From assembly GCA_977018835.1 (NCBI GenBank), contig OZ361256.1, positions 4,898,001 to 4,962,000 of the forward strand: 64,000 bases of DNA. The letters run 5' to 3'. Both the position numbers and the translations under genes were made by a program. The number at the start of each line of letters is the position of its first letter. Within the stretch, counting starts at the first letter, position 1. The notes beneath the pieces were generated by a model. The model was not told the origin of the DNA. It searched no databases and worked only from the letters and a program-made list of their open reading frames with translations. This DNA comes from Minutocellus sp. GHC0000111 (taxonomy: Eukaryota). This document shows positions 1 to 41,014 of this stretch, piece by piece.

Positions 1-516
1 ATCTTGGAAAAGTGGGAAATCAATTCAAAAGTGGGAAATGCTGCTACTTCGTCAGCGTCAGTGGCGAACACAATCGATCATGTGTTGTGAGGCTGAACAG
101 GAAAGTAGCCGGCGGTAAAAGGCCGAGATCATGAGTAAGTCCGGGATATGGTACAGGGCAAGCAGGCCAAACGGGCGTGCGTGCCTCTCCTTCGGCGCAT
201 CCGGCACTTTACTCGGTTGCTTTCCTTTTGTATTTATCATTTTTGCTCAACACCGGCCCCGCATCCCGAATTTGTCACAGGATCCTTGGTCCCACTTTCT
301 TTCGAGGCATTTGAGGTTTCTTTGGAGCCTGTTGCGGAATATTTTGAACTTCTTCGCAGTTCTTCCCACTCAAAATACATAATAAGCCTACAGCCTCATT
401 CATTCGTATTCAAGTATCGGCCTTGCGTGGATTTCTGAGAGAACGAGGTCAAGAGGACGCAAGAGCCGCAAAGACGCAAGAGCCGCAAAGTGCATGATGT
501 ACGGCCGTGTAGCGTA

Positions 517-538
517 CCTTTCGAGTTCAGAGGATTTG
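517..538. repeat. Left terminal inverted repeat of a Tc1/mariner-like element
   Basis: TA (515-516) followed by CCTTTCGAGTTCAGAGGATTTG; the reverse complement of 17505-17525 is identical except for one indel. Confidence 0.8.
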
Positions 539-841
539 AAAGTGACGTGATGATGACGTATTAGAAACACGACCACACCAGACCAAAAATCCAAGCTCAC
601 TTTTTCTAACTCCGAGGAATAAATGACGGCCAAGATGGAAGTCGGGGCAAGAACCAAGTTATGGTCACCAACTTCTACATATAGTCGAGAGATATTGTGC
701 ACCAGAACCAATAAATGTACATTATGTGATGATTTTTTTCGACATTTGCATTCCTCACCCCGGGAAAAAATAACATTTTTGGAAGCACCAAATCAAAATG
801 TAATGAATAGAAATGGACATGCTATGATAAGTTATAGCAAA

Positions 842-1005
842 TCAATGAATGACTCCATCGTCTTCATCATTTTCATCTATGTCGTCCTCAATGTCATCAT
901 CTTCGCCGGGAGCATCAATTGGCCAGAGTGGTTCACCATCCTCTTCAGCTTCTTCCTCGGCAATTTTTTCGAGAGAGTTGGTCCAGCCCAGCTTTAGGTG
1001 AGCCG
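842..1005 (-). pseudogene. Possible acidic C-terminal tail of the mariner transposase
   Basis: HLKLGWTNSLEKIAEEEAEEDGEPLWPIDAPGEDDDIEDD...GVIH* ends about 300 bp inside the left TIR on the same strand as the transposase fragment at 15280-17289; positional inference only. Confidence 0.3.
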
Positions 1006-1728
1006 CTCGACCCACAGCCCCATCTCGTCTTGTTTCGCCGGTCGGATGAAGCGTTTTTCGGCAGAAGACGAACACGTCACGAAGAAACCCACCAAAACCC
1101 AATCTCGTTCGTCACCCATTCTTTGACCGTCCAACACCATGGTGGTCCGTCGGCGTTGCGCCGGCGCACAACCATGTTTTCGTACCAAACACGCATTCAT
1201 TATCATGTTTGGATGTAGTTGAAGCTTACTGCATCCTCAGATTGGCCTCCGCTGCGTATCAACGCCACGAACCATCGGCCTACTTTTCCTCCATCTGTCG
1301 GCCGTTCGTTTCTCTGGGGTGGTGCCATTGCTCCGTCTTTGTGCTCGTCGTGCTCCCGTTGTGATGCCCCAGACCCTCTGGCACTTTCCCACGTTGTTGT
1401 TGATGATAAACTGCCAGGATTGCGCCGCACCCCCCGTATGACCGACTCTCGCTGATCCCGACCGATCGCATCCCCACTCGACCTCCCGGAATTCCGACAA
1501 CAATTTTGCGCCCGAGAGGAGACAGATGGTGTTGGGATAAGTTTATGCAACAATCAACCCGACAAAGGGACTTTTTGGTCTGGGAGAAAAATGGGTGAGT
1601 TAAGAAGGACGTGATGTGTTTGTTTGGGTGTGCTGTTTACTTTTTTGCTCAATCGCGATACTGTTTGTAAAAGTTGGATTATGCAATTCATTTTTTGTCA
1701 TTGTGTAGCAGCAGTGTAATTTCATTTT

Positions 1729-3365
1729 CTAATATTGTACATGCCCTGCTCCCATCTCTACATCCTCATCTCCATCGGTGGCCATCATGATCATTTGTTG
1801 GCGCTTGTCATCAGTTTCTGCTTTAACAGCTTCGGTCCTTGTCCTTTTCCTTGTTCTTGCCACCCAAGAGTTTCGCTCCCGCCTCTCGTCGACCTTTGGA
1901 TTGGATGCCCTCTCCTCAGCCTTGAACTGCGCCGTCTGTTGGGCCTCACATCCCTTGACGCCCTGAGTCCGACGATCTTCCTTAACGCCCTCTTGGTGGG
2001 CTCGCTCTACAAACGATTCGTCGAGCCAACAGATGCCGCCCCATCCATTCTTCACTAGCCAAATGTGTTGGTCCAAGATGTGATCTTCGAGTAAGTGCCA
2101 CTTGGGCGTTGTGCTAATGCCGATTGCCCGTGCTTGCTTGAGGGCACTTGCAATCAATGCTTCAAGCTCTCTCACAGCCTTCTTTGCCTCATCATCCCAT
2201 TTCATGTGCCATTTCAGAAACCTGGAACATGTTGCGTCAAGAGTGTGGAGCAAATTAGAGCAAGCTTTGCAGAGCTCTTTGATGTCGTCATCCGTCACAT
2301 GCCACCTTCCTCGCGATTGTGCTCTAGGAGAGCTCCTTTGGTGGAGGTGTTGTGGTGGATGAACTCTGTTGTCCTTGGTTTCTTCTTGTTGTTGCCATCA
2401 GAAATATTAATAGATAAAGCTCTCCAGCATTCTGCCAGCACTGCCCTTATTTTACCTGAGTCGGCCGCCTCAATGCCGGCCTTTTTCAGGAAATGGAAGT
2501 GAGGGGCATCGTCATCCTCGGCATCATCGACAGCTCCCATCTCTGGCTCGCCATCACCGTGCTTCTGACGATTCTTCTCAAAGCACTGCTGCATGTGTGC
2601 TTCATGTGCAGCGTCCTCTCTTGCAACATCAGCTTCGTCCTCATAACAGGGCACACAGTCCTCGTCTTCGTCGTCATCGTCCTCACTGATCTCGCCGGCC
2701 TCCGTCGTGGTCAGGGTGCCCACCGTCCCAACATCGTCGTCATTGTCCCACCCATCGTCCTGGCCATTGCACCCACCAGGGAACTTCTGGGCCTCGAGCA
2801 ACATCTGCCTGTTGATTTCGTAGTCCATCGCCGCATGTCCCACCGACACATGTGGTGCGACCGACTTGAGGAATGCATCACATGCCTTCGTCAAATTGAG
2901 CCGCGGCGGCGGCATTTCGAGGCGAAATTGTTGCTCGACCGTGACCATGTCGAAAGCCATCCATCCATCATCATGGAGAGCGTCGGCTGCACGAGGATTG
3001 ACAGAACCGAGGCGAACAAACATGCTCTTTTTGCATGGGGTTCGCTGAACGTCGTCGGCAAGGCAGTGTCTTGATACCATTTCATCCCATCCATTCTGGT
3101 TGTCTGTCCTCACAAAAAACACATCGCAGTCTTCGTGTTTCTTCTTCTTCAAACCCAAGATGCCCGCAGTGTGCATGACGGCGCCGTGCATGATGGGACT
3201 GCATCCCAACACATTCATCAAGGAGTCGTTGTTGCCGATGAAATTGTAGTAATGAAGTTCCTTTCTGCGAAGACGGACGAGTAGTTCAGCCAGGGCGTCC
3301 TGCGCACGCCGCAACTCTGTCTGCGGTGTTGACCGCGGGATTGCGGCCGCTGTTTTTTTGCTCAT
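1729..3365 (-). pseudogene. Degenerate RAG1/Transib/Chapaev-like DDE transposase (C-terminal part 1729-2298) plus upstream element ORF
   Basis: TPKWHLLEDH...GGICWLDESFVERAHQ parallels the RAG1 Hx4H zinc-ligand and catalytic Glu segment (YFHKTLAH...GSIGAWASEGNESGNK). The N-terminal catalytic Asps were not found and termini were not identified. Confidence 0.55.
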
Positions 3366-4507
3366 GGAGAGCTGTGGATCGAGACCAACGGGAATGTCAC
3401 CAGGATGTCGGGAGTACCTGGTTGGTCTCGTGCCGTAATTCTCCCACACCAGCGCGAGATATCGCCTTCGTTCTGCACGCAGCGGCGGCAATTTGAATTT
3501 TTGCCGCCATGGTGGCTCGCGTTGGGCGCGCCGGTCGGTTGCTTCGCGCGCCGGCCGGCCACCGAAAATGCGACCAAAAGTATGCGAGTCATCCGGCTGG
3601 CAGATGGTGCTGTGGACCCAAAAACTGGACATTCGTCTTTCCGTCGTCCGTGTTTCCAACGCGGCGAAGTACGGGAAAAGTCGCAATTTCCTGCCGGACC
3701 AACTTTTCCCCCTGAAATATGGCAAAAAGACTTGATCGAGCCGGCCTGCCTCGCTTACGTCCCCACTCTAGACACATTCAAGGTTGGGGACATCGAAGGT
3801 CCGGCTCGAAAATTCCGCACACAGGCTGAGCTATCGAGGGGGAAAAATCACGCACAAAAAACGATGACGACATACGAAAATTTGCTCTCATTGGCGGCCG
3901 ATTCGGGGGCGGATACGAACAAAAACCACAACAATCAACCATACAAACATTTTCATTCATATCTTGGGCGTGTGTCTCTGCATTTCTGGGTGGATTGGGC
4001 GGCTGTGGCTCTCACGGTATCACTATTAGAATAATTGTGAGCCAGTAGGAAATGGTTTATGCATTGTTTCCTCCCTTTCTCGCCCTCCCTTCCATCTTCT
4101 TTTTATTTTGGCTCTTTTTTCTCAATCTTCGACTTAACGAGAATGCCCTACCGGCATTCAATAGCTTTGCTGATTTTATTTTCTATCGGGATGACTAATA
4201 GAAATGCCTGGGTAGTAGCTAGAGGGTCGCAAGGGCCCTTGTATTACCTAGGCAAGCTTGCCTTGCATGTATCCAACTGATGACTTCAGCCATTGCATGT
4301 ATCAGAGCTCAGCGAAGAAGCCGACCGAGCCGAGCGAAAACTTCAGCCAGACACGAAAAGAGGAAAAGGCCTTCCTCGCATTGGATAGGCCAGAACTGGC
4401 TCTTCGAAGCTGGCTCTTCGGCTCTTTCCCCATTTTCCTCTTCTGTCATCCGTGTGCGCAACTTGCCACATTTCATAATACGACCGAGTTACAAAGTGAA
4501 AGAAGTC

Positions 4508-6450
4508 ATGTCTAATCCTTCTCCTGTCGTTCCCGTCACGGTTCTGTGAGTTGGTCTCTTCTCAACATTTTACTGCCGCTTAGTATCGTCTTATCGTCTT
4601 CACTCACAACATTATCGGCAGTCGATATCGGTGCCGGTTGCTATGTTGTTCCCCTTGGCACAATTGGCACCTTCTCACCTCCCAAACTCTATTCTTTCTC
4701 TCCTAATCTTACTGCTCAACTGATCGAACACAGGACCGGCTTTCTGTAAGTGTCTGTCTAGTCTATCTATATCTCGTTCTTCTCGTTGCTTCTTCAGCGC
4801 ATTTATTTGTACTACGTGCATGTATTGACATTACTTCTTCAGCACATTTATTTGTCTACTATTGACATCTCTAATTACTCATGGATATCTCCAATTTTGC
4901 ATGTCGGACCCTTTCTCATCTCAAACGATTCTATTGATCCATCTCCAACATTATCAAATTCAACAGGGGCTCGGGCAAGACCACTCTGCTCAACCACATT
5001 CTCAACGACAAGACTCATGGGATGAAATTCGCCGTCATCGAAAACGAGTTTGGAGACGTCGGAATCGACGAGAAAGTTCTGTCTGAGAACGTCGACGAGG
5101 AGGTCATCGAGGTCATGAACGGCTGTATCTGCTGCACCGTCCGTGGAGACCTCGTGGAGGCGCTCAAGAAGCTCTACAAGCGCGTGGAAAGCTTCGATGG
5201 GATCCTCATCGAGACGACTGGCCTTGCCGATCCCGCGCCTGTAATTCAGACCTTTTTCGTAGATGAGGACATTCAGAAGATGTACAAGCTGGACAGCGTC
5301 ATCACCGTCGTCGATGCGAAGCACATCATCCCCCGTCTCGATGAAAAGAAGCCCGAAGGGTGAGATTTCCTCAACATTTTTCACTTGTGTAGGATTGATT
5401 GCACGAACTGTATCTGTACGATTTGTAATATATACATCTGTATGATGTACATGCATTTATCATTTGTGACTAATCCCATCATCTTGACTACTACACATTC
5501 ATTTACTTGATCATGATTAAATAGGGTGGAGAACGAGGCCGTCGAGCAGGTTGTCTTTGCCGATAGGGTAAGTTATTATACATGTATTCTGAGATGTTTG
5601 ATAATATTTTTTCGTGTCCAGAACACCCACCATGTACTACATGTTACAAATCTCGAATGTACATGTATATCAAAATGTACCATTCAGATGTACGCACCAA
5701 ATATCCTTCTGACAAATACATCCTATTAAATTTGCTCCGCTCCCACCATAGATCATCCTCAACAAGACGGACATCGTCAAGGATGAAGCCGAGCTCAAGA
5801 ACATCGAGGATCGCCTTCGTAAGCTCACTCCCACGGCACCCATTCTTCGTGCCCAGCATGGCAAGATCTCTCCCAAGGATCTTCTCAACATTGGTGCCTT
5901 CGATCTCAAGCGCGTCTTGGAGTTCGAGCCAGAGTTCCTCGACGATCCTGATGCCGAGCATGAGCACGATAAGTCAATCGTGTCCACGTCCTCCAAGTTT
6001 GAAGGAGAGGTCAATATCTCCATGGTGGAGCGCTGGATTCAGCGTCTCATCATGGAGGACGGTGCCAACCTCTACCGCTACAAGGGTGTCATCGCTGTCA
6101 AGGGCAAAGACGAGAAGTTTGTCTTCCAAGGCGTTGGAATGATGTTCTCCGGAAATTTCCAGGGCGCGTGGAAGCCTGATGAAAAGCGTGGGAGCCGATT
6201 CGTCTTCATTGGCAAGAACCTCGATGTTGCCTTTCTGAAGGAGGGCTTTGAGGCCTGTAAAGTCACCGATGAGCTCCGCTTTGCGGTCGGCAGCACTGTC
6301 GAGGCCAACATCGGCCAGTGGGAGCGGGGCGTCGTCATCAAGCAGTGGGATGATGGCAACGCCTATCGCATCCAGCTTTATGCTGACAATACCCATTGCT
6401 GGGCGCCTCTGGACATCAATGCGTACGTCCGCCCCGTCCGTGGTGGATAG
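4508..6450 (+). CDS. COG0523/CobW family Zn/Co metallochaperone GTPase; exons 4508-4545, 4734-4745, 4967-5359, 5525-5567, 5752-6450
   Basis: Spliced product has VTVLTGFLGSGKTT, ENEFG, GCICC, ETTGLA, LNKTD and CobW_C (RYKG...FQGV...FVFIG); all introns are GT-AG and in phase. Confidence 0.95.
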
Positions 6451-6642
6451 ATTTGCTTGAGATAATACATGTAACACGAGCCATCCGGTTTAAGATCAGA
6501 TCAAGTTGCAATGAAAGAAAGCTTGGACATCATCTCTTTTCCAGTAGGCTAGCTAAGTTGCGCTCAGAAGAAAAGTAACAAATTAGTCTGGTCGATCTAG
6601 CATGATACTATATAATCGTACTAGTACCGTACGCAGTATTGG

Positions 6643-8900
6643 CTATATTTCCTCGTCGTCGTCGTATTCACCATCGTCATCCGACATAGAAGAAGCTCTC
6701 TCTGCGACAGCATCTAGATCCACCTCGGGCTCTTCCGCCAAGTCAAGCAGTGTTATGGTATCTTCAAGATATCTTCTCATTCTCTCGACCTCGCTGTCAT
6801 CACCATCACCGTTGTTGCCAGCGCCTTCTGTAGCCTCCGGTCCCTTGCTCATGCCACCCATAGAGGCAACGTCATCGTAGTTAAAGTCTGTGAAAGTAAA
6901 GCCAAGTTCTTGAGCCATATCGTCCATTTGATCTGCCTCTTCGGTCTTGAGAATAGAGGTAACTCGCCCTCCAACGCCCGATACACTGCCCATTTGGCCA
7001 ATCCTGCCGACACGGCCAGCCAAATCAAGGTATTCTCTCGGATCATCCGATGGAAGGTACATGGTGTAAACATGCGTCAGGTTGGCAAAGTCCAAACCTC
7101 GGACGGAGTTGGGCGTGGCGAGCATGACGCTGGTAGCATTGGACTTGAATTGTTCCATAATTTCGAGAGGATTCACGCCAATGTTGGGTAGCAGAACGCA
7201 CAATCTATGCTCGCCCCATAGAGCATCTCTCATGGGCTCGATCGCTGCCTTGGCCTCTTCCTCGCCAGGGAAGAAGGCCACGACGCGGGGACGCTGAATC
7301 TGCTTGCGAGCAGCGCCTTTATCTGCATCAGCCTCGGCGTTGGCCTTTCGGACGGCTTCGTCGTATTCTTGCAGCTCCTTGCGCAGCATTCGTACTAGAC
7401 ATAGCATGCCACGGTCGGCGGGAGCAATGACACGCTCGTGTCGGAGTCCAGGGTCCAAACACAAACCGAGATCCTTGAGCGATGCAGTTCTCGTTTCGCT
7501 CGCAGTATCGCCACTGGCAGAATCGGCATCGGACGTTGATAGCGGTGCAAATTGAGTAGCCGTTGCGATGAAGCTCTTGCCCTCCGGAAGGATACCATCT
7601 CGCACAACCAGCTTGCCCAATGATGGAGTAACAGTTGCCCCGACAACGTATGTAAGTCTGGAGAAGTTGCGCTCGTCCTCTGCATCGCTAAAGAGGGCTT
7701 TCAAATCATCCTCGGGGGTTTGCTCCAACGCTAGATCGGCCTCGTCATAGATGACAACTCGAAGATTCTCCGGAATGATGTCGCCATCCCGAATTAACTT
7801 GCCAAGATACTTGGGTGTGGTAATGGCCACGTCGGTCTGCAATTTGAGTCCAAATTTGGCCTCCTCGTCATCCAATACGCAACCAATTTTCACTCCCTTT
7901 GGTCCTTTGTATTTGAACATGTTGGCCAATCCAGGCATCTCGGTCTGCGTCTTTTTGGTGCTGCCACCGACACATTCATACAAAAGCAAGGCGGTCTGAA
8001 CGCCAAGCTCCCTCGTCGGCACCACAATGAGCGCAAGTGGAGATTTGACATCGGTACCAGACTTTCCGTGAGTGGACATGGCTGCTCCGGTGGCGATGGT
8101 ATTGCCACCTCCACCGCCGACTTGCTTTCGTCCCTGCCCTCGAATGGTCGGGCTGGTCTGTACGGCCACCCGAGCCAGCAAATCGTCCGACACATCGCCC
8201 ACATCTTCCTCGGCCTTGACACGGATGCGCTGCCGGGTGAAGAGCGAATCCGACAGAGTGGACAGCATGGGTACCAAATACGCAAGGGTCTTACCCGAAC
8301 CGGTACTTCCCGAGATGATGACGCCCATATTGCCAACGTTGGCGTTGCGCTGGATCAGCTCCTCCAACGTAGTCGGCGCATCTTCGCCGTTCATGGCCTC
8401 CTCCAGCGCTCCGAGCATGGTGTTGACGGCCTCAAAGGCGTTGATTTGGATCGTCGTGGGGAACTTGTAGTTGAGCGCATCGAGCCGATCCTCCAACCAC
8501 CGGGCCGTGCCCAGCCCTCTCCAACTAAGTCGCTTCATCTTGCGCCGGTCGATGTCCTTGCTGTCCGACGTGCCGGCGGGACGGTAGGCACCGGTCGATA
8601 CTCGATCGGCCAGCTCATCCCGATACTTCTTGGCCAGGAGGTAGTCCTCCGTCGACACGGCCTGCCGAAGGAGAGTTTGTAGCTCGTTGAGGCCCATGGA
8701 GGATATGCTATTGGTAGAAGTGGCTTCGTCATCATCTGGTGATGCAGAGGAGTACAGGATGCAGTGGCGGTGGCGGTGGCGGTGGCGAGTGGGTGATATC
8801 GAAGGGGGGGAGCTAACGACCCATGCCGTGCAGAAGGAATTGCGGGCGAGGCAGGAGAGGCAGGGGAGGGCAATGAGAAGATATTGGTGGAGTGAACATA
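6643..8900 (-). CDS. DEAD-box RNA helicase with N-terminal UVR motif, probably plastid-targeted; start uncertain
   Basis: Q motif (PTTIQ), GSTGSGKT, PTREL, DEAD, GAT, RGLD, GRVGR; LRQAVSTEDYLLAKKYRDEL is a UVR motif; signal-peptide-like stretch ends ...CTAW but has no in-frame ATG upstream. Confidence 0.85.
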
Positions 8901-9607
8901 GTTGGGAGGGTGGGTAAGGTGTGTGGGGAGGGGGCAAAGGCTGGAACACGAGTAGCGACGCGATTGGCACTTCCACTTCCACCTCACTGACGTGATGGAT
9001 TGTGGGAGCAGGTGAGAGCGAAATAAAGTGAAATCTGCGGCTGTGAGGATTAGTTTCGGCGTGACGTAAATTTCTGGGGGGGAAATGGGGAAACTCGCCC
9101 GACAAAAGCTCTTGGCCGGCAACAATGCCAAATCCACAACAATGGATACAACGGGGTCGGCAACGTGGGGTTGGTGTGGGGTGTGTATTGGGGGTTGGGT
9201 GTGGGGGGGGGGGGGCAAAACTGGCGACAAGCGCCAAGTTTCGCCAGGTCAAAAATTATAGGTTGACTTCCCGCTTTGCGAAAAGTGAGATGGGATCACG
9301 TACAGCCTGCAGTGTTTCATGCGTGAACGGACCAGCTCCTCCATCTCGCGACGCCCCTGTTTGATCGGACGCCTGCGAACCTAAGGTAAGTATGGGGCTT
9401 TTGAACGAACTTGGGAACTCCCCGATTTTTCGCTTGCTATCTTTCATGATTCCGAAACCAAGGCAAATTTGCATCACATTGCATTGGTACCTACCTACTC
9501 TAGCTACGTAGCTAGACTAGGCCTAGCTCTAGGTAGGCCTACGGTACTTGTGACAAAGCATCCACCACATCGCACATAGCAGTTTTTCGTGTATCGATAC
9601 CGTGGCG

Positions 9608-12600
9608 ATGAGGTCGCGTCGTTCCAGAAAAGCCCCTGCCGCCACAGCTGCCGCATCATTTCCCCCAGCAGCTGGTAACGTTGCTACTGATCCTATCGGT
9701 TCTGCTGGCATGAGCGGTAGCACTCGTCGCACATCGCCTCGGACGGCGGCATCAGCAGCAACACGATCGGCCGCCGCTACCGGTGATGGAGCACAGGCCA
9801 AGAGCAAGAGCAACACCATGGTAGCGATGGCAGAGGAGCAGAGACAAGCCTCAAAGTCAGGAGCAGACCCACCAGGTCGGAGATCGGCCAATACGAGGAA
9901 GCGAACTAGGACCACCTTCTACAATGCCGATGTGGGTACTGAAAAATCGACTGGGGGTTCAACGGCCAAAGCAGATGGTGCCGCTGAGGCAGAAGCTACG
10001 GGCGGTGCGACATCACGCTCATCGGAGGCTCAGTCGGATACGGCGGGTAGTGCTATCAGTGATAAATCAGCAAAGGCACGTGGCGATTCGAACGGTGGCA
10101 AAACGCAGAAAGCAAGTGCCAACACCGGTGCAACTGTCGGCAGGACCAGCAGACTGTCATTGACGAAGCGTCGGGCCGCTCGAGCACAAGCACAGACCCT
10201 GGCACAGACCAAGACGAAGGATCAAGTCCAAGTGCAGCCTTCACCTGGGAGGGCAAAGGGACAAAAGTACCGGGTCGGTACTGTCATATCCAAAGATTTT
10301 GATGGAGTTGGTAAGTGGATAGAATGCTTGACATGTCCTGAGTTAAATTGCAATGCTATGGAATGAATCATGCATCGTAAGATTTCGTTGGAACTTTACT
10401 TAATTATCCATCATTCGTTGAAAATTCCATCCAAACAAATTGCTGATTAGCGTATCGAAATGATATTATTTCGTACGATGCCAAGGCTCGGTATTACAAG
10501 GTCCGATATGTGGAGGATGGTGACGAGGAGGAGCTGGAGGAAGCCGAAATTGAGCGTTTCCTGGACCCACTGGATTGTTCTTCCGATGCCGATAGTAGCA
10601 TTGCCGTTTCTATTACAGCAGCAGCAGTGACTACTGATGTGACCACCGCTGGTAAAAAGACAAGTGCCGACGAGTCTGCAATAGGGTCCAAGGATGTTGC
10701 AGCAGCAAAGCCCGAGGGGAAGACTAGAGGCGCTACTGCTGCTGCTGCTCAGGAGGATGCGGTGACAGCAAAATCGACTGACCGTGGGAAAGGAGATGAG
10801 GCTGCTGCCGCAAAGGATGGGCCCAAGAAGAATCAAGAGACAAGTGATCTTTATCTAATTGGAACTGAAATATCCAAAGATTTTGATGGAGTCGGTAAGT
10901 GCATTCAGAGCGAGTACATTGCATTTTTCCAAATCTATGCCCATGTTTTACACTCGTTCAGAGCCGATCTTTAATTTCTCACCCAACCACAACAATAATC
11001 TTCTACCCAAATGCTACCAATAACATATCAGCCTATCGAGGAGAAGTTGTTTCGTATGACCAGGGTTCTAAATTCTACAAGATCCGATATTCCGATGGTG
11101 ATGAGGAGGAGATGGACGCGAAGGATATGAGAGTTCATGTCGTACATTCTACTGGAACGAAGACAGATGATGCAGGCGCCGCCACTAAGAATGGTGACGC
11201 CAAGAAGAAGTCCAATGGCAAAAAGGCCGGAGCGAAAATAGTTGATTCGTCGGAGATCAGTGTGAAGGCGGGCGATGATGCCGGCGCCGGCACCAAGAAG
11301 GGCGGTACGAAGAAGGCCAACGCCAAGAAGGGCGATTCCAAAAAGGCTGCGTCCTCGGAGGTCGGTGGGAAGATTGATGGCGGTACAAGTGAGAGTGCAG
11401 GCGATCATTCTGGCGCTTCTGCTGGTGATGACGGAGCTCAGAAGTCTAGTAAGAGTGCAAATAAGGGTGGCAGATCGAAAGAAGGCAAGAAGTCGGACGC
11501 AACAAATGAAGCGTCGAAGCCTTCGGATCCACCAATTTCGAGTCGAGATGATATCCTTCGGGCCGCAACGCAATTGGCTGCCACCAAAACGCCCGTCTCT
11601 GCAACCAGTACCAGTACTAGTACCATACCCAAGAAATCTGACGGGGGGCTGGAAGAAAAGGAGACGTTTCATCCCGGTCATGTATGCAGAGATGCACAAT
11701 TTTACACTACGCTGAATGATGAAACGCCATTCGATTGCTCCGAAAAGCTAGGTTGCGAGTGCAATGATCTCATTTCTGTCAATCGCAAACGATACAAGAG
11801 ATTGAATGCCAAATCAAAGCTACAGCAGGGTACAATCCTCCGAATTCCAGAGAAACGTGACGTTGAGAAGGTGCTACAACTTTACAAGTACAAGGATGGG
11901 GAGCCAAAGCTTGACTACTGTTACGTTTGCCTCGAGATTGAGAGTCCTGACGGTCCTGAGATGCTCCTGTGTGATGGTGATAGCTGTGATAAGGCCTGTC
12001 ACCTATCCTGCACGCACGATAAGCTCAATGCTGTTCCTGATGGCAATTGGTATTGCAAGAGCTGTCAAGACAAAAACAGTTCCAGTATCAGCAGTAAGCC
12101 AAAGAAGGACGAGACGAAGAAAAGATCAAAGCTAAAGCGTGTTCCCAAAGCAAGTAGATCAAAGGGCTCTGGTACGAGAACATCGGTATCCTCCTCAACC
12201 CCTAATTTGTCTTCTGTCCGGCCAGTCACTCCGGCTTCTTACGATGTGATGGATTCTCTTGCTTTTCTCGGGCAGAGTACGGCACCGGCATCGGCCTTGG
12301 CGTCAGCTCCATTACCAAGCAAGTCCCGCAGTGCCAAGTCCAAGCAAAAGCAGAAACAAACCAAGAGCCCTCCTCGTCCAAAGACTCCAAAAGATCAAGA
12401 ATCAATCTTATCGTCTCCTGCGAATCTCCCCAGCAAGAAGTTGCTCGCAGTGTTGGATGGACAAGTTGTCGAGGATTCGACTACTAGCGACAACGCTCAC
12501 GTGGCGACTACGACTGAGAGATCGGCCGCTAAGAAAATGAAAGGTGCTGCTGCTACTGCCACTGCCAGCAAGAAGAAGAAAAAGGGGAAAAACAAGGACA

Positions 12601-13916
12601 ATAACAATTCGACTCCTATGGATAGCATCGCATTGACTGTGGAAGAAGAGTTTAAGCAATTCGAAAGGACAAGGCTGAAGGGCGAGAGACAGACTATTGT
12701 CCTACGAATTCGCCGTCTCAAGGAAGAAATAACATCTCTGCAAGATCATGGCAGAGCTGCAGCTGCCAAAAAGGGAGGAGAGAAGCCCGAATCAGCCTTA
12801 TCTCGTACCAAGAAAATTACTTGGAAACAACTGGAGCTGAAGAATCTTGAAGGCGAGGAGAAGAGACTCACAAATCGTCTTGATGAACTCTCAGAAAATG
12901 CCTCTTCTTTATCATCTGCAATCGAGGAGGCCGATGACTCAGATGCTTCCGTCACAGCCAAGCCTTCTTCTAGCAATGGCAAGGCTATCAAGAAAAAGAA
13001 GGCTCGAGGATCTACGAATGGCAAAAAGAAGAAAGAGAGTGATAATGTCGCTTCTGACGCTCCAACGAAAGCAACTGCTGCCGATGCCAGCACCGCCAGC
13101 GGTATTGATGCCAAGAAGCGCTCTTCTTCAACAAAGTCTGGTCAGAAGAAACGAAAACAGCCATCGGGTAGCAGCGATGACGAAGATACTGAAAGTGATG
13201 ACCAACCAAAGACCAAGGCTAAGAAGAAGGCTAAAACCTCCGTAAAAAAAATATCAACGAAGAAGGGATTGAGCGACATCCAACGTAAGCGCGACCAAGC
13301 CCGAAGGAAACGTAAGCAGCTGAAGCTTTCTCGCCGTTCCTCGAAATCAAGCAGTGCTGGGGATAATGACGATGACAGCGATGAGGACTACTCACAGGTT
13401 TGGGTCAATAATGACGCAAATGATTCTACTGACCATAATCTTCCACCTGATATATCATCGGACGAACGTCCTGCGAAAAAAAAGAAGCGCCAAAGCCGCC
13501 GCCAGAGTGGTAATAGTACCGGGAGAGGCAGGGGGAGTAAGCCCCGATGGCTTCCCTGTGGATCCTGCCTTGGTTGCACACAGACCAAAGACTGCGGTCG
13601 TTGTCGCTCCTGCCTTGAGCGTCCTTCAGAAGCTACCAATGCTCGTTCCACTGGAAGCTTCCAGCGCTGCATATGCATACAGCGGCAATGCTTGGCGCCT
13701 ACGCACAGAGGTGGTTCCAGTGCTAATGGGGACGATGTCGATATTTCTACCCCGACACTACCACCAGCTACCGACGTCAGTAGCGCGAGCCAAGAAAAGG
13801 ATCTCCCGCAGCTATCTGGTGGGGTAAAGCGCAAGAATATGCCTGCCTTGGGCGGCGTGAAGACCAATACTTATTGCCAGCATCAACTTACTTTTATTAT
13901 CATCACTTTCTACTAA
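9608..13916 (+). CDS. Chromatin reader: 2x Tudor-like, LysM-like, PHD finger, coiled coil, CXXC zinc finger; exons 9608-10310, 10451-10894, 11032-13916 (3' end uncertain)
   Basis: Two repeats of GTxISKDFDGV/AYR...Y...YKxRYxxGDEEE; C4HC3 PHD (CYVC...CDGDSCDKACHLSC...WYCKSC); CGSCLGCTQTKDCGRCRSC...CIQRQC; in-phase GT-AG introns. Confidence 0.85.
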
Positions 13917-13957
13917 GTAAAGTATCGTACAACGCGTGTGTATCTTTTGTTTCGATT

Positions 13958-15165
13958 TCATCTTTTAAAAGCAACTAAATTGAATTCTCTCTTTCTCAAA
14001 AAGCGGAACAAGTCGGTGCATACGTTGAAGGGCGACCCATCCTCTTCATCCTCCACCTCAGTCTGTCCAATACTATCGGCCAACGTGTTGGCAGCGGGAG
14101 GGGAGTCAGTGTCCTCCACGATGACATCGGCATTCTTGGTGGCGTCGCCGCCAGACTGGAAATACTCGTCATCCTTGCCATTAGTAATGTCCTCGTCGTT
14201 GGAGACAACGTCCTTAGCTGAAGTAGAGTCCTTGGCGTTCTCGCCACCTTGATTTTTCTCCTCCATGCTGGGCCATGCAACAATAAGCCCACGACCATCC
14301 TTACTGGCATCATCATCCTTTTTGATAGTATCCTCCTCGCTCTCGTCCTCGTTGTTTTCTCCAATGGCCTTAATGCCGGCTTCACCAGCATTTCCTTCCA
14401 CAAGATGGTCACTAACAGCGTCATCCTTCTTCTCTTCTTCATTACCCTGCTTCTTTTCGCTCTGGATAGGGACAGGAGCAGTAGCAACACTCATAGTAGA
14501 CGACATGCGCTGGAACATGTTGGCGGCATCAGCGGCGGCCACAGCAAGTTGCTGAGAGAAAGAGGTGCTCTCGACAACGGGGACCTCGGCGTCGCTCTTG
14601 AGCTGCGATCCGTCGATAGTGCCATCGGTGTTGTACGAATTGAGAATGAAATCGTCACCGTTACCGTCAGTAGACGCACGAGAGATGTCTCCAAAGTCAA
14701 GCACATCGTCCTATACAATAGAGGAGTGAAGATGATGAGGGAGATGCCACAGGTGAGAGAGTTAGGATATGTGTGTTGTGTGGTATTCCAGCATGGTAGA
14801 TATTGGATCCCTATGTAGTAATTCAGTCACCAGCAATCATCGAGAATACGTGTACTGGCTGCCGCCGCCGCCTACAACGACTTACCCTCTTCTCGGTGGC
14901 ATCGTCAACAGTGCCATCGCTTCTGTTCCTCCTCTTCAATCACAGGGAGCTCGGTGCTGGCGAACTTGTTGCTGCCCTTGGTCTTCTTCTTGCCCCATTT
15001 GAACTTCTTCTTTCCTCCGGATCCCTTCTTGTTCTTGTTGCGCTTGTTGAAGATGAAAGCCCTGTCGATTGAGATAGAGCAAAGGATCAAAAGGACAAGT
15101 TAGCATGGAATCATTGGTGAGATGAATATGTTTTGATCCGTGGCGCCATTTGAAGATACGTACAT
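13958..15165 (-). CDS. Unknown protein with basic N-terminus and acidic body; exons 15165-15164, 15061-14886, 14710-13958; one frameshift near 14920
   Basis: Canonical donors (gtacgt, gtaagt), acceptors and branch point CTAAC; AT|G GCT TTC gives MAFIFNKR; exon 2 needs a frame change at CAG AAG C GAT to reach the phase-0 donor. Confidence 0.55.
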
Positions 15166-15279
15166 TGTTGACGATGCCGATGGGGTCGATTTGTAGGCAG
15201 TGAGTGCAGTGCGCAGGAAAACAAATAAATGAAAGTGAAAGTCAGAATGCGAGAATGCCGATAGCTCTACGTAGCTCAA

Positions 15280-17289
15280 TCGGGCCGTCGTTGACCTTAG
15301 CATCTGGAGAGAAACTCTGATTACGCGTAAGCTTTTCCACCTTCTGCTCCCTGGCGACTCTCTTGATCATGATGCGCCCATTGAAATCAACGTCTTTGGT
15401 TTCATCCTTCATTGGTCGGCCAACAACTCCAAGATGCACAACTTTGACAGGGTGTCTTCTGGATCGAATTTTCGGGCTTGCCTCGGAAGCATGGACAGAC
15501 GCGAGGTTCGGACTACTTAGTTCTTCGTCAGAAAGTGGCAACATCTTGATCTTTCGTCGCCGAGCAGCAGTGTAAAACCACTTTTCATCAAGATGCGCTA
15601 CAGGAATGTTGGGATCGGTCGTAATGTCCTCCCACTTTTCGATCCAATCAAGTCGCTTCCTGCAACATTCGGGGGTGAGCCTCGGCTTCTCGATCGACGA
15701 CTTCCATCTCCTTGCCGCCTTCTTGCTTTTTCCACCAGCGAAAAAGCTGAAGACGATGGAGACTAATTGTCAGCCTGTCTTCATCTGGAGCAGCTGATTT
15801 TGCGCTCACACAGTCAGCTAGCTCCTTAAAGGTTGCCATCGCACCCTTCATCCGAGCAGCATGCCGACACAGCTCGCGGAGATGTCCTGGCTCCTTCTCC
15901 TCGATCATGTCCGTGTGTGCCTTCCTTCCACGAACCGAACCTCCTTTCTGCCGATGGGATTGCTGATGCCATCAGCAAGGCTTTTGTAGAGCTGGTCTCT
16001 CCACTTGTAAAGCTGAGAACCACCGGTTGACTTGGCACAACCGTGATCGCACGCAACTTGCCGACACGCGGCAGTTGCAATTTGTTGCCGGTCTTCATGC
16101 GTGCGAGTTGGGTCGCCGCATCCCCACCAATCCGCGAGAGCCACGGCGCTGAACCGCATTCTTTCATTCGCCTGCTTTTCTTTTCTCTGATGATTGGCAT
16201 TGGTTCGGTGACGGTTGCATTGGGACGAGGAGGACGGAGCATGTCATCGTTGGCCATCCGAACAACAAAGTCGAGGCCGAGAGCGACCTTTGCCTGTTCA
16301 TCAATGTCACTGGAGGTGGCACAGACAACGGAAGTGTCGGCTCCTCCTAAACCTTCATCATTGGGGGAGGCTGCAGCTGCTTCAGTGGCGGAAGCATCAC
16401 CAGTTCCCTTTAGCATGCTGAGGAGACTTGCTGGCATCCAACCCAGTTTCTTGGCCTCGTCGACTAGTGATTTTACTCTTGCTTCGCAATGCGCTGACTG
16501 TGCACCTCCTTTCTGTGAGCTGACAACCTCTCACCTAGCTTAGCAGCTAAGACAGTCGAGCGCCCAGAGAACAGAACTTCATCGGGATTTCTTTTCTCGT
16601 GCACCTTCTGTCCCTCCGGTCCAGAGAATTTCGGGTGGTTGTCCTCCTTCTTTTTATGCAACCTGTGAGAGCACAAACACAAAGCGCCCTGCGTCTTGTC
16701 TTCCCTCTCGGCCGACACGTCGACAAGTGCAACTTCAAACTACAATGCTCCTTGAGATGTTGCTGCACATCCTTCCATTTTTCCTCGTTGTGCTGTAGCT
16801 CACACTTTCCTCCACCGACGGACTTGGAACGCAACAAGTCGGCCTCGATGAAAGCAGGGAGGACGTCTTCTTCCCATTTCTGCCGGCCGAGAGCCAACAC
16901 AAATGTCATCTTTGCCGCAGGAATCGGGGGTCACTCTCCACCACAGATCCTTACCAGCCCTTCGAATGACATCTGCTGCAAGGAGAAAGGCCATGGGGAC
17001 AGGAGGAGGGGCCGTCCTCTTCTTCGCCGACGACGGTGACGGTTTGGCGGGGGGGCGAATTTGACCGTGGCCGCTTCTTCGACGTGTTTGCGCTCGGCGA
17101 TGGTGTTTTCGGCTCAGCTGCCGCCTTTGCCGCCTTCCTGGATGCCTTGGTGTTGCCTCTCTTGCTCCCTGAGAACGAAGTTCTGCTGCTGCGTTTGTGT
17201 TTTTTGGGCGTGGTCTGGTTGGTCGTCGTCATCATCGTCACAAAATTTGCGGGTTGCGGTGAGGGTGTGCGGGGGACCAAAAAATGCAT
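15280..17289 (-). pseudogene. Tc1/mariner DD39D-like transposase, N-terminal half, frameshifted and truncated
   Basis: AHLDEKWFY (15572-15595) and KVVHLGVVGRP...FNGRI correspond to the plant-mariner HIDEKWFY and KVMFL...ARP...FDGKI motifs; the second and third Asp are missing. Confidence 0.8.
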
Positions 17290-17504
17290 GTGTTCCTGCC
17301 AGAATCTACTGGACCTGCGAATTCAGTGGATACTACTGGTCGGTGGCAACCTACTGAATGAGCAGGTCGAGCAGACATCCACGACGAGTTGAGGAGCATT
17401 TTTGCGTTCCTCCCGAAGAGAACATCGACTAACAAAACACGTGGTGGGAAATGAGAAATGGGTGCAAGAATGACCTTTTTTAGGGGTTATTGGTATACCC
17501 TCTA

Positions 17505-17525
17505 CAAATCCTCTGAACCGAAAGG
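17505..17525. repeat. Right terminal inverted repeat of the Tc1/mariner-like element
   Basis: CAAATCCTCTGAACCGAAAGG followed by TA (17526-17527), upstream of the minus-strand transposase. Confidence 0.8.
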
Positions 17526-17871
17526 TACCATGGTACCTCTAGCTAGTACTAGCACTAGGCCTAGTAGCTACGTAGCTACGTAGGTAGGACATCGAGCCGT
17601 CATGAATTTCAGAATAACAGGATTAAAGGAGATCGGGGAAAACCCTAGACAATTAACGGCAAAGACATTGTCCTTGTTTCTGTACTTCAACATTTGAGAT
17701 TTTCTTTTTTGCTCGCTGCAAGCGACGTTGGTGTGACTGCGTGGGTGACTGATGATGGCCCTTGCGTTCGTTACTGGCTTGAGCGATTGACCCCTTGCAA
17801 TTTGTGGCGGCAGCAGCAGTGGTATCGATCGAAATCACTCCTCGTTAGCTTTTTGCGATTGAAAGCTTGTC

Positions 17872-20442
17872 ATGAACGCAATAAGATCCACCGCGCTCCT
17901 AGCGGTTCTCTGTCTTTCTTGTGGCGGGGGCGCCCACGCGTTTGTACCGACAAGTCGTATCAGCAGTTCTACTCGTACTAGCAGTAGCACTGTCGCCAAG
18001 CGTCCCTTCCATGCATCGACGCTCGAGGAAACAGAAACTGCGAGCATTCTGGACAAGCCAGCAGAAGAGCTCGATGTGAAGGACCAGGCCAAGGTCGCCG
18101 AGAAGGCGGTAGTTGTTCTGGAGGACGACATCGCGGAGGCGCTGCAGGCCGAGGCCGAGGCGATGGCCGACGCGCTCATGGACGAGGAATGCGAGATCGA
18201 TGCCGAGGATGACCTCTGCCGCGACGAAGGCAAGCGCGCCAGGGCCAAGAAGATGCTCAAGAGCATCGTCGGGAGTACGCTTGGTCTCGTCCGACGGGGC
18301 GATGGTGGCGCCGGCGACACCGCTGCAGACGATGCGGATACAGAACACTTTTTCGATACTGGGGTGTTGGATGGTGATGATGTTCCAGAGGGTGAACTCT
18401 TGGAACGTGGATGGGAGCAGCGCGGCAGCTCATCGGCACTCGGGCGGAATGCCGAGGTGTGGAAGTTTGCCCTCAAATGCGTCTTCAAGGCACTCAAACC
18501 ACGGAAGCTGCGAAAGGCCGATGCGTCCGAGGAAGAAATTCAGGCGGCCAAGACGGAAGCGGCTGTTTTTATTCGCGATGGGCTGCTCCGTCTTGGACCT
18601 ACATTTGTCAAGCTGGGACAAGTCGTGTCGACTCGCACGGATGTGCTACCCGTTGAATATACGGATGTGCTCAAGACTTTGCAGGATGATGTTCCAGGGT
18701 TCTCAGGCGCTCGGGCCAAGGACATTGTTTCGCGAGAATTGGGCAAGCCTTGTGATGAGGTATTTCAGAACTTTTCGTCGGAGCCTCTGGCGGCCGCATC
18801 CCTCGGGCAGGTCCATACGGCCACATACAAGGGTAAAAAGGTAGCCATCAAGGTGCAACGTGCCGGATTAAAGGAGTTGTTCGATGTGGACCTCAAAAAT
18901 CTCAAGAAACTTGCAGTGCTGCTGGACAAGTTTGATCCCAAAACGGATGGTGCCGACCGTGATTGGGTGTCGATTTACGAGGAGAGTGAGCGCTTGTTGT
19001 ATCTGGAGATCGATTATCTCAATGAAGCAACCAATGCTGAACGTTTTGCACGTGACTTTGACGATGTTGAGTGGGTCCGCGTCCCTCAATTTTACCGGGA
19101 GGTTTCGACTCCTCGTGTTCTGACCATGGAGTTCCTGGAATCCTTCAAGCTTACCAATATCGAGCGCGTAGTGGAGCTTGGACTCGATAGAGAGCTGCTC
19201 GCAAAAAGAACAGCAGATGCCTTCCTTCGGCAGATCATTGAAACTGGATATTTCCATTGTGAGTGAAGGTTTGGCTTCTAATATTTCTGATGTTTTTGGG
19301 TATACATCTCTTACGAACCTCTCTCTTTCTTTCTCTCTCTCCTTCTTCTCTTTCTTCTCCCTCTTCTTCTCTCCCTCTCTCCCTCTCTCCAATCCAAGGC
19401 GATCCTCATCCCGTGAGTGGACACGTACACGTAGCTTCACCAGATATATATGTTTGCATCTACTTGAGACCAAGCTTTTCGTTTTCCTTCTTTTCTGCAT
19501 CTCACCTCTTGCTTCCATTTATTGCTTTTTATTTTGCAGGGTAATCTTTGTGTCGATACCGAGGGCAACCTTGTTTACTACGATTTCGGAATGATGGACG
19601 AACTAAAGCCGAATGTCCGTTCTGGATTTAGAAAATTTTGCACCGCACTTTTCGCTGGTGGACCCATGATTTCTGATATTGATTTGGCCAAAAATGCCAA
19701 AATGTTGGTTGATGGCGTTGAGGAGGCTGGAGTTCTTGCCCGCGGTGCCGATCGGCTTGCCGTAGAGAAGCTTGCACGATACTTTATGCGAACTTTCAAG
19801 GACAAGCAGCTTGGGAAGAAGGCGTCCAATATCAAAACAACAATCGGTACCGACCTGCAGACACTCACTGAAAATAATGTGTTCCGCTTTCCGAGCACGT
19901 TCACATTTATTTTCCGTTCGTTTGCCAGTATTGATGGCATTGGTAAGGGTCTGGACAAAGATTATGACATCGGAAAACTGGCACAGCCATTCGTTGAAAA
20001 ATTCACTGAGACTCAGAAGGGATACAAATCGGAGTCCGAGAAGCAACTTTCAATCTTTAGCAAGGCTACTGGTCTGAATGCTGATGATATCAATACTGCC
20101 GTCACATCGCCAAAAAAGATTCAGTACATCGAAGAAACTCTTCGAGCGATGGAAAATGGCACACTCAAGGTCCGTGTCCGTTCGTTGGAGAATGAGAAGG
20201 CTCTTGAAAGAATGTCCCTCTCGCAAGGGCGCATGGAAAATCTGCTTCTCGCCTCTGTCCTGCTCAATGTCGCCGGTGTTGCTTCTGGACCCATCCTCAC
20301 GGCAGCTGGATCGATCGGTGCCGCAGTCTTTGGCTTCCAAGCCTTTATGGCCAACGCCAAGATCAAAAAGTTTGACGAGACCCAGGCCAAATTCGTTTCG
20401 ACGAGCTTTGAGGATGGAGATACGGAATCATCCGAAGAGTAA
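17872..20442 (+). CDS. ABC1/UbiB atypical kinase, plastid-targeted (ABC1K7/8-like); exons 17872-19258, 19399-19412, 19540-20442
   Basis: Signal peptide plus AHA/FVP; LGPTFVKLGQ, AAASLGQVH, VAIKVQR, EIDY, HCDPHPGN (spliced), DFGM. Confidence 0.95.
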
Positions 20443-22197: not shown

Positions 22198-22694
22198 CAA
22201 TCGACTACTGGCTCTTTCGGGAGGGGGTGCCAGCTCTGGAACCTTTGCGGTTTGCTACTCTGCCGCAACACGTACAGCCAGTTATTTCAGCTGTGGCGAT
22301 GGCGATAAACGTGATGGGTTCAGACATCTTGCCGTTATTTACGGCGGAACCTCTCAAAGTACAACAAGTGAAGAATTTGCCGGGACTTGAAAACGAGCAC
22401 GTAGATCTGCAGATCTACGTACGTCATCAGAAAGGTCGGCATGTCGGCATGGCTGGCAAGCAAAGCGAAAGAAAGCGCTCTGCCTCTACATGTACATGTA
22501 GCTACGTACATGTAGCTACGTAGCTAGCTACGTAGATCTTCGCTCCGGCTCGCCTCTCTTCATAACCTTGAAATTAATACTATGACTTTTAGCTTTCTAT
22601 TAGACGGACACGAGCAGACAGGAATCCCATCTCGTGACATGCTAGAAATTGACATAAATCTTGAGAAAAAATATTAGCAAACGACGAGATTTTT

Positions 22695-29487: not shown

Positions 29488-29683
29488 TGTTGAAACCGTG
29501 GGATACGTACGTACGTATACATACGTACGGTACGTACGGTGATCAGACCACTGACTCAGTGCCCTCTCCTGACCGTTGATCCATGGGCCAACGACATCTC
29601 CGATGGCCCATTTTTCATCTACGTAGGTCCTGTTAACCTCTACTAGCTATATCTATCTAGCTTAGCTTTAGGACCTCTTAGCA
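29488..29683 (+). repeat. 5' LTR
   Basis: Matches 35543-35738 with 3 mismatches in 196 bp. Confidence 0.97.
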
Positions 29684-29992
29684 GACCTACGTGATACATC
29701 TTTTCCACCCGTGCTCGCCCCATTTCGGTTCGCACCTCACCGGTTTGTCTTTTGGGTTTTCTCACTCGTCGTCACACGCAAGAAAAACCGACACATCTTC
29801 AATCGGCCAAAACGACCGTTTCTTTCGACAATATTGGAACGACGATCCAATCCCTTCCCCGAAAGTCCTGACCAGATCGACCCATCCAATCGATCACACT
29901 TCTCTGGATCGAACCTTCTGTCGATCACACGTCTCGCAGCAGCAACGCCGCCGTGCTGCCTGTCTTCGCTGCTGACTGACTGAAACACCAGC

Positions 29993-35494: not shown

Positions 35495-35542
35495 GACTCT
35501 ACATGTAGATTCAATGGCACTAGTCATTGATCTGCGAGGGTG

Positions 35543-35738
35543 TGTTGATGCCGTGGGATACGTACGTACGTATACATACGTACGGTACGTACGGTGATCA
35601 GACCACTGACTCAGTGCCCTCTCCTGACCGTTGATCCATGGGCCAACGACATCTCCGATGGCCCATTTTTCATCTACGTAGGTCCTATTAACCTCTACTA
35701 GCTATATCTATCTAGCTTAGCTTTAGGACCTCTTAGCA
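35543..35738 (+). repeat. 3' LTR
   Basis: Copy of 29488-29683, followed by TSD CTTCA. Confidence 0.97.
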
Positions 35739-37884: not shown

Positions 37885-38327
37885 GGCACGACGAGACTAC
37901 TCTAGCTAGTCTAGAGTAGGCTACAGATGTGCAACTGAACCTGCTGCAGGAAGGGAGCCCTGTGGCTGGCATGGTCCTCAGCCTGACGCCTGACTTCGCT
38001 CAAGCGTCATGCTCGTCAAAAAAGACCCGAGGGGGGTACTTCGAGGTTGCAGCACAAGTGCGAGAATAATTGGTCGCCCAGACTGAGTTTTCATGTCGAG
38101 GTTTGTCGAGGTTGGTAGATCTACCTCTTCAAGATTGCAAGATGACAATTCGATAAAATTTACGCAGATTTTATTTATGTATATACATGTATCGCGGCAG
38201 GTATCGAAAGAGGTCTTCAGGGGGCAAGGTTAGGGTTTAAATCTACAGTACATTGAAGCCACCAAAGCTGCACTTCGATCGGTGGCAACACGCATTGTAA
38301 TCGCATGTGTCTCCTTCCTCTCAATAT

Positions 38328-40910: not shown

Positions 40911-41014
40911 ATTTAGCAGAGTAGAGACACATATTAGATATTCAACCATATCAAGACTTAATTTTAAGTTAAGCTCCATTGCTAGCTAGCACTAGACTAG
41001 CTAGTAGATCTAGA

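What the first reader, a model, noticed from the sequence alone, without database searches (positions are those of the whole stretch)
517..17525. Mariner TIRs enclose 17 kb with four host genes: giant cargo-carrying or split transposon
Seen: TA-flanked 21/22-bp inverted repeats at 517 and 17525. The transposase starts near the right end and stops abruptly at about 15280, before the second catalytic Asp; a possible C-terminal tail lies near the left end. Between them are a RAG-like relic and intron-containing genes for a COG0523 metal chaperone, a DEAD helicase, a PHD/CXXC reader and an unknown protein. Inference: a Pack-type element that captured about 14 kb and could be mobilised in trans, or a rearrangement between two copies. 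A TA TSD cannot distinguish these.
Basis: partly seen in the sequence, partly recalled or inferred. Interest (0 to 1): 0.7.

Follow-up and report, generated by a model that had tools for sequence, protein, structure and literature searches.

The report
Mariner ends around four relocated genes
In a diatom-like alga, the two broken halves of a cut-and-paste jumping gene enclose four host genes that sit at a spot where relatives have different neighbours, so the 17-kb unit was likely moved here as one piece, which would be a route for shuffling several genes at once, though the move itself is inferred and not seen.

Summary
TA-flanked 22/21-bp TIRs at 517 and 17525 end two collinear, non-overlapping pieces of one DD39D mariner family; about 790 bp with the 2nd and 3rd catalytic Asp are missing. 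The interior is a separate high-copy repeat (977-4024, 'RAG-like' is a lead only) plus an 11.3-kb block of four host genes at single-copy depth, so this is no amplified Pack family.

In two related lineages ABC1 is preceded by eIF2B-gamma, and no block gene occurs in 52 ABC1 loci. Contig lengths put eIF2B-gamma on the window's own contig, separate block genes from ABC1 in a ~97.5% sister, and place a 99.6-99.9% second copy of 3 of 3 block ORFs (0 of 4 ABC1-side genes) on another contig.

The block is probably foreign here (~0.6): most likely two neighbouring copies lost their inner ends and jumped as one unit (0.38), or one copy captured it during repair (0.22). Two independent relics beside native genes remain possible (0.3). 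No empty site, donor flank or junction-spanning read was seen. New variant of a known kind (ToxTA, Pack-TYPE fusion).

The parts
515..516 (.). TA dinucleotide, left putative target-site duplication
   Evidence: sequence
517..538 (.). left TIR, 22 bp (3' end of the mariner)
517..976 (-). 3' piece of DD39D mariner: last ~43 codons (973-845), 3' UTR and TIR; broken at 974-976
   Evidence: loose ends in X1 and X13 run on into the family's missing part (table 7)
977..4024 (-). separate high-copy repeat with a frameshifted ORF (3365-1732), motif PKxH..H..G..E..E..HQ; cut at 4024. RAG1/Transib/Chapaev-like is a lead only
   Evidence: X1 depth about 1.8e5-1e6 against ~500 for host DNA; loose ends at 988 and 4024; 152 homologues; motif; atlas lead 0.89; no Pfam/PDB support
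4025..15285 (.). 11.3-kb host block, single-copy depth; about 1-2 bp of overlap with the repeats at its edges, no TA or TIR there
   Evidence: tables 2, 7, 8
4508..6450 (+). COG0523/CobW metal-chaperone GTPase, 5 exons, open spliced frame
6643..8900 (-). DEAD-box helicase with UVR motif; 684-aa ORF from 8697; the presequence-like N-terminus has no in-frame ATG
9608..13916 (+). Tudor-Tudor-PHD-CXXC chromatin-reader-like gene, 3 exons, open spliced frame of 1343 aa
13958..15165 (-). unknown acidic low-complexity protein; exons inferred by eye
15286..17525 (-). 5' half of the same DD39D mariner family: promoter, N-terminus and first catalytic Asp; frameshifted; ends at P0007 residue 544
17505..17525 (.). 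right TIR, 21 bp
17526..17527 (.). TA dinucleotide, right putative target-site duplication, in a TAG/CTA-rich intergenic tract
17872..20442 (+). ABC1 atypical kinase, outside the unit; preceded by eIF2B-gamma in relatives

Best explanation
The 17-kb stretch is two same-orientation pieces of one DD39D mariner family around a second repeat and an 11.3-kb block of four host genes, and it likely arrived here as one non-autonomous unit: two neighbouring copies probably lost their inner ends at another locus, and a transposase made elsewhere would then have cut at the two outer TIRs and pasted the unit into a TA upstream of ABC1. Shown: TIRs, TAs, one family, collinear halves, loss of D2/D3, single-copy depth of the block, and a different upstream neighbour of ABC1 in relatives. 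Inferred from equal contig lengths: that the block's home is another chromosome and that eIF2B-gamma lies on this contig. Inferred from precedent only: the fusion, the jump and the trans-acting enzyme. With the repair-capture rival, the chance that the block is foreign here is about 0.6.
For: (1) One family: both pieces match P0007/P0006; identical tail peptides P0160/P0162 lie on contigs of the same lengths as N-terminal copies P0024/P0001; a 3551-nt contig of run X15 aligns from 15824 to 15286 and has 1270 further letters, about the 790+460 expected, and a contig of equal depth (52.9) covers position 844. (2) Synteny break at the right TIR: eIF2B-gamma lies directly upstream of ABC1 in 3 of 17 loci whose upstream DNA was compared (L029; L001 and L002, near-identical to each other), RPAC40 lies upstream in 5 of 17, the downstream neighbour is kept in L029 and L001, and 0 of 52 loci hold a block gene. 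(3) The eIF2B-gamma orthologue P0323 is on a 2,909,337-nt contig, the window's contig length, but not in the window. (4) In a ~97-98.5% sister, block genes (P0029, P0309) are on a 721,601-nt contig, while ABC1 and 3 genes further right (P0295, P0315, P0351/P0353, P0368) are on a 1,010,602-nt contig. (5) 3 of 3 block ORFs found have a 99.6-99.9% copy on a 1,206,057-nt contig; 0 of 4 ABC1-side genes show a second megabase-contig copy at that level. (6) Haplotype-level divergence with private changes in both helicase copies and block depth about equal to ABC1 fit cut-and-paste from one homologue. (7) In X13 a single-copy contig aligns down to 4024 and has 96 further letters not listed as aligned there. 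(8) The anatomy matches the neighbour-fusion scheme in PMC8903248 section 9.
Against: No empty site, no DNA left of the window, no donor flank and no listed contig bridging any junction (one search shows 15 of 60 joints and 31 of 10568 pieces). Equal contig length is a fingerprint, not a coordinate. The 1,206,057-nt contig may be a partial alternate haplotype, and the two sister contigs may be pieces of one chromosome. Clusters are incomplete: P0027-29 are singletons at >98%; lists showed 15 of 16, 15 of 19 and 15 of 21 members, and the sister's eIF2B-gamma was not among those listed. 14 of 17 upstream stretches lack eIF2B-gamma (more distant diatoms). Window 1-516 shows no similarity above shuffles to the eIF2B-gamma-ABC1 spacer of relatives. 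Both halves are decayed and the TIRs differ by an indel; no intact transposase was seen on the megabase contigs. A chance pair of this shape is expected 0.01-1.8 times per genome under assumed copy numbers.
Confidence: 0.38

Rival explanations
1. Two independent relics: the four genes are native to this chromosome; the left cluster (mariner 3' piece plus second repeat) and the right mariner half are separate, truncated insertions, and the new neighbour of ABC1 comes from an inversion or similar rearrangement with a breakpoint at or near the right copy.
For: The family is very abundant (X1 depth 1.6e5-2.4e5 against ~500); such pairs can arise by chance; local same-orientation hopping is reported for plant elements; block depth equals ABC1 depth; an inversion also keeps eIF2B-gamma on this contig.
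Against: It needs three coincidences: complementary halves, a synteny break at the outer TIR, and a partial alternate haplotype that holds 3 of 3 block ORFs but 0 of 4 ABC1-side genes.
Confidence: 0.3
2. Repair capture (split element): one mariner with a nested second repeat sat between eIF2B-gamma and ABC1; a break in it was repaired by copying 11.3 kb from another chromosome, which replaced ~790 bp of transposase and the 5' end of the second repeat. The unit has never moved.
For: The halves do not overlap and add up to one element less 790 bp; short overlaps at the block edges; in X13 the block's edges seem to run on into other DNA (96 letters left, 6 right); decayed repeats surround an undecayed block (TA o/e 0.28 and 0.34 against 0.64); the other PHD copy seems to carry a 1-base shift (P0305).
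Against: An extra copy should raise block depth 1.5-2x if X1 carries it; it is ~0.9x (mean of 14 block bins, 2 motif-inflated bins left out). An 11-kb non-homologous capture is long compared with the 58-280 bp captures in PMC8903248.
Confidence: 0.22
3. Assembly chimera: two loci were joined through the 460-bp and 2.2-kb repeat pieces.
For: No junction-bridging piece is listed; both outer parts are high-copy.
Against: The contig is 2.9 Mb, so presumably long-read (inference); two mis-joins would be needed within 17 kb, and the inner junctions would still have to be real somewhere.
Confidence: 0.07
4. An amplified, currently mobile Pack-mariner family of 17 kb.
For: Both TIRs and both TAs are present.
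Against: Block depth is single-copy in X1, X14 and X15 and patchy in X13; only two helicase copies at 99% or more among the 120 best of 339 hits.
Confidence: 0.03

Closest known systems
ToxTA (formerly ToxhAT) of Bipolaris sorokiniana (PMC12506042, passages read)
   Same: single-copy, ~14-kb, TA-flanked, non-autonomous, probably Tc1/mariner unit with a host-acting gene and nested elements
   Different: ToxTA has 74-bp TIRs and a shown empty site and move; here the ends are halves of the cognate transposon, the cargo is four housekeeping-type genes, and movement is only inferred
Pack-TYPE elements, neighbour-fusion model incl. Pack-Mariner (PMC8903248, passages and section 9 read)
   Same: two same-orientation copies, inner TIRs deleted, enclosed unique DNA, transposase needed in trans
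   Different: captures described there are 58-280-bp gene fragments in multi-copy plant families; here 11.3 kb with several whole genes, not amplified, in a diatom
Maize Ac/Ds macrotransposons and alternative transposition (PMC8225341 passages; Huang and Dooner 2008 seen only as a reference title)
   Same: linked copies in direct orientation that can move or rearrange the DNA around them (macrotransposition itself recalled, not read)
   Different: hAT elements with active Ac; here a mariner with both inner ends lost
PlantMar / DD39D (Guest) family of Tc1/mariner (PMC7325037 passages)
   Same: DD39D spacing, short TIRs, 2-6 kb length (about 3.5 kb here), TA flanks
   Different: reported there from angiosperms and a few oomycetes; the diatom proteins are longer (850-970 aa); phylogenetic placement was not tested

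Membership tests
Tc1/mariner (ITm) | mariner-type DDD transposase | tested here: met
   model of P0007 hits Mos1, E 5e-7; IS630 HMM 7 of 12, HTH_Tnp_Tc3_2 5 of 12, DDE_3 3 of 12 members; no sequence-profile hit in PDB
Tc1/mariner (ITm) | short TIRs flanked by TA | tested here: met
   duplication of TA not shown without an empty site
DD39D/PlantMar | 39 residues between D2 and D3 | tested here: met
   P0007 D693-D733; this part is missing from the window copy
DD39D/PlantMar | placement inside the PlantMar clade | not tested
   no tree was built
Pack-TYPE / cargo TIR element | non-autonomous, both outer TIRs kept | tested here: met
Pack-TYPE / cargo TIR element | internal DNA derived from another host locus | tested here: inconclusive
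   favoured by synteny and contig-length evidence; donor not seen as DNA
Pack-TYPE / cargo TIR element | several copies of the cargo-bearing unit | tested here: not met
   single-copy depth
Macrotransposon / composite transposon | moved as one unit (empty site or second location) | not testable with these tools
   no genome held; joints table cut
RAG1-like/Transib (repeat 977-4024) | RAG1-core profile or CAC-type TIRs | tested here: inconclusive
   atlas nearest named cluster RAG1_ZnH2 at 0.89; no Pfam RAG hit in 26 of 150 listed homologues scanned; no PDB hit; ends truncated

The most novel reading that the evidence does not exclude
A diatom DD39D mariner has formed a 17-kb macrotransposon that recently carried four host genes, including a zinc/metal chaperone and a PHD/CXXC chromatin reader, from one chromosome to another, making mariner-driven relocation of multi-gene blocks a working route of diatom genome rearrangement.
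Probability: 0.38. Interest if true: 0.7.

Novelty: new variant of a known kind. Interest (0 to 1): 0.55.

Why it matters
If true, a plain cut-and-paste element moved a block of several intron-containing genes with their promoters between chromosomes. That is far larger than the fragments typical of Pack elements, and it is in a lineage where five searches of the held library found no such report (open-access library only). It gives a concrete, testable case for how synteny breaks in diatoms: both donor and target are predicted. It is one event in one assembly and not an amplified family, and similar units are known from fungi and plants, which caps the interest. The TpA-directed A:T to G:C decay of repeats seen in passing may be the more surprising lead.

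Tried and rejected
No own genome is held, so the DNA left of the window was not readable. Viral and prokaryotic collections gave nothing for the transposase, the helicase or the TIR pattern. Whole-record searches of five metagenome loci were not possible. Joints 17570/17582 to 9495 were considered as an inversion junction and rejected: they read as allelic variants of the TAG/CTA tract at 9480-9540, which is an inverted near-match to 17555-17578. My first idea, that the TAG/CTA tracts on both sides of the right half prove native adjacency of the unknown gene and ABC1, was dropped. Window 1-516 against the relatives' spacer: no score above 100 shuffles. No eIF2B-gamma-cluster and ABC1-cluster members share a short-contig length among those listed. 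13 of 30 sequences given to cluster look-up were not in the collection (1 of 10, 6 of 10, 6 of 10), among them the COG0523 and unknown-gene ORFs, so these two genes have no contig evidence. The absence of cover over 16101-16744 in X15 is not used as evidence. An apparent frameshift in exon 2 of the unknown gene was not accepted: X1 and X13 carry the same letters and another donor keeps the frame. The RAG label could not be confirmed. Earlier scan notes held nothing for this genome or look-alikes. Two macrotransposition papers were not held. No supplements were read.
Full report
Observation. The inverted repeats are real: 517-538 and 17505-17525, each flanked by TA, one 1-bp indel apart. None of 40 simulated windows gave a match this good. 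The ungapped repeat finder did not list it among its 25 longest pairs. The organism is a diatom by its helicase homologues. No whole genome is held.

The mariner. A search with the catalytic fragment found 26 relatives among 205 candidates; many are broken copies at 80-92% on megabase contigs, and some are full-length proteins of 837-971 aa. Against P0007 (852 aa), 15287-16946 covers residues 1-544 in several frames and 848-973 covers 808-849. The 264 residues between them, with D2 and D3 spaced by 39, are missing. The family folds like Mos1 and matches IS630/Tc3 profiles. Laid contigs fix the breaks: at 974-976 other copies run on into the missing coding part, and an X15 contig of 3551 nt runs past 15286 for 1270 letters, about what the missing 790 bp and the 460-bp left piece require. 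Both pieces are therefore one family, collinear and non-overlapping.

The interior. Depth is summed contig depth and no copy number, but the contrast is 100-fold or more. In X1, bins within 517-3864 and 15457-17388 lie at 1.6e5-1e6; the block lies at 207-714 in 14 bins (2 bins near the C-rich/TAG tract at ~1600 were left out), and ABC1 at 490-521. X14 and X15 also give the block and ABC1 similar depth; X13 is patchy for both. So 977-4024 is a second repeat, cut at 4024, and 4025-15285 is unique DNA. It holds COG0523 and Tudor/PHD/CXXC genes with open spliced frames, a DEAD helicase and an unknown gene. The second repeat has 152 homologues with a conserved PKxH..H..G..E..E..HQ motif. That motif resembles RAG1/Transib/Chapaev transposases from recall, and the atlas lead is 0.89, but Pfam and PDB gave no support.

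Is the block native here? A metagenome scan with ABC1 exon 1 gave 52 loci. None holds a block gene, though most are short. In the closest, L029 (83-84% DNA identity in ABC1), and in L001/L002, the gene directly upstream is eIF2B-gamma. L029 and L001 continue with aprataxin-like, RPAC40 and PDZ genes, and keep the downstream neighbour. RPAC40 is also upstream in L032, L033 and L038; the other 11 of 17 upstream stretches show neither gene. The ancestral order in this lineage is thus broken where the right TIR stands. How recent the break is cannot be told from these loci.

Contig-length evidence (indirect). The window's proteins sit on a 2,909,337-nt contig. The eIF2B-gamma orthologue P0323 is on a contig of that length and is absent from the window. 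In a sister at 93-98.5% protein identity, helicase and Tudor exon are on 721,601 nt, while ABC1 and three genes further right are on 1,010,602 nt. A 99.6-99.9% copy of helicase, Tudor exon and PHD ORF lies on 1,206,057 nt, a contig that also carries a decayed copy of the mariner family (P0021). No such megabase copy appears for 4 ABC1-side genes (two lists complete, two showing 15 of 16 and 15 of 19) or for eIF2B-gamma (15 of 21). The clustering is leaky and the contig could be a partial haplotype, so this is support, not proof. In X13, a single-copy contig aligns to 4024 with 96 letters left over, and another aligns to 15287 with 6 left over (and 10 at its other end). This is a hint that the block has other neighbours there; where those letters belong was not shown.

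Mechanism. I put about 0.6 on the block being foreign inside the mariner ends. The preferred route (0.38) is neighbour fusion and a jump. It has precedent (PMC8903248 section 9), needs no long non-homologous copying, and fits both the ~0.9x depth in X1 and two helicase copies with private changes (1 in the window, 2 in P0028). Repair capture into one resident element (0.22) explains the non-overlap better but predicts extra depth if X1 carries it. Two independent relics plus a rearrangement (0.3) is not excluded, since chance pairs are expected 0.01-1.8 times per genome under assumed numbers. A chimera gets 0.07 and an amplified family 0.03. The unit cannot move itself; whether the TIR indel or the lack of an intact transposase blocks further moves is untested.

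Comparison. It would work like ToxTA (14 kb, TA, non-autonomous; PMC12506042 passages) and like fused Pack-TYPE neighbours. It fails the multi-copy feature of a Pack family, and the move is not shown, so it is filed as a probable cargo unit and not as a member. PMC7325037 (passages) reports DD39D from plants and oomycetes; PMC8225341 and PMC10175614 were read as passages for context. Searches found no diatom report in the held library (46 listed one ciliate paper). An earlier scan note on a fungal pogo cargo element was seen and not tested.

Side finding. The repeats are depleted in TpA (o/e 0.28 and 0.34 against 0.59-0.64 in host stretches; one short host exon is also low, 0.26, and the Copia is at 0.57). 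Tyr positions of intact P0159 read His or Cys in 130 of 209 aligned cases over 14 copies, and 10 of 11 listed window C/G versus family T/A sites are in TpA context. This points to repeat-directed A:T to G:C change, opposite in direction to fungal RIP. The block is not affected.

Verdict. Real feature, new variant of a known kind, interest 0.55; the decisive data are the DNA left of the window, the donor locus and the long reads.

Noticed in passing
window 977-4024 and 15286-17525; proteins P0001-P0005, P0012, P0021, P0022, P0024, P0164-P0168: TpA-directed T>C / A>G decay of repeats: TA o/e 0.28-0.34 against ~0.6; Tyr read as His/Cys in 130 of 209 positions over 14 copies; 10 of 11 listed sites in TpA context. 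Looks like a repeat-targeted mutation process opposite to RIP; one paper search found nothing.
   Followed up: partly
window 29488-35738: Copia-type LTR retrotransposon with 196-bp direct repeats at 98% identity, RVT_2 match, and a PTM/DIR17-like Tudor domain late in the long ORF 31300-34080 (E 9e-12); not TpA-depleted.
   Followed up: partly
window 3615-4024: This part of the second repeat is the most repeated in relatives X14/X15; a joint 1008 to 3615 is seen in 4 of 4 runs (deletion derivative), and in X15 one contig has telomere-type repeats next to 3908.
   Followed up: no
window 8700-8900 minus: The helicase's presequence-like N-terminus has no in-frame ATG; the nearest ATG is out of frame, whereas relatives P0148 and P0031 have an open presequence. 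Possible lesion or error.
   Followed up: partly
P0305 (1,206,057-nt contig) against window ~11050: The second copy of the PHD gene seems to carry a 1-base shift in exon 3: decay of one copy or an assembly error.
   Followed up: no
window 13872-13907: X1 has an allele with 550 other letters here: a polymorphic insertion at the 3' end of the PHD gene.
   Followed up: no
window ~9480-9540, 17530-17590, 22460-22540, 37870-37930, 40960-41020, 56670-56730: Recurrent TAG/CTA/GTAC-rich palindromic tracts between genes; the right TIR sits in one.
   Followed up: no
window 844, 15703, 15931, 16186, 16866, 17049: Both mariner pieces carry private 3-5-bp insertions relative to other copies (table 4).
   Followed up: no
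L001 and L029, upstream of ABC1: The aprataxin-like/RPAC40 pair is inverted between the two relatives while eIF2B-gamma-ABC1 is kept.
   Followed up: no
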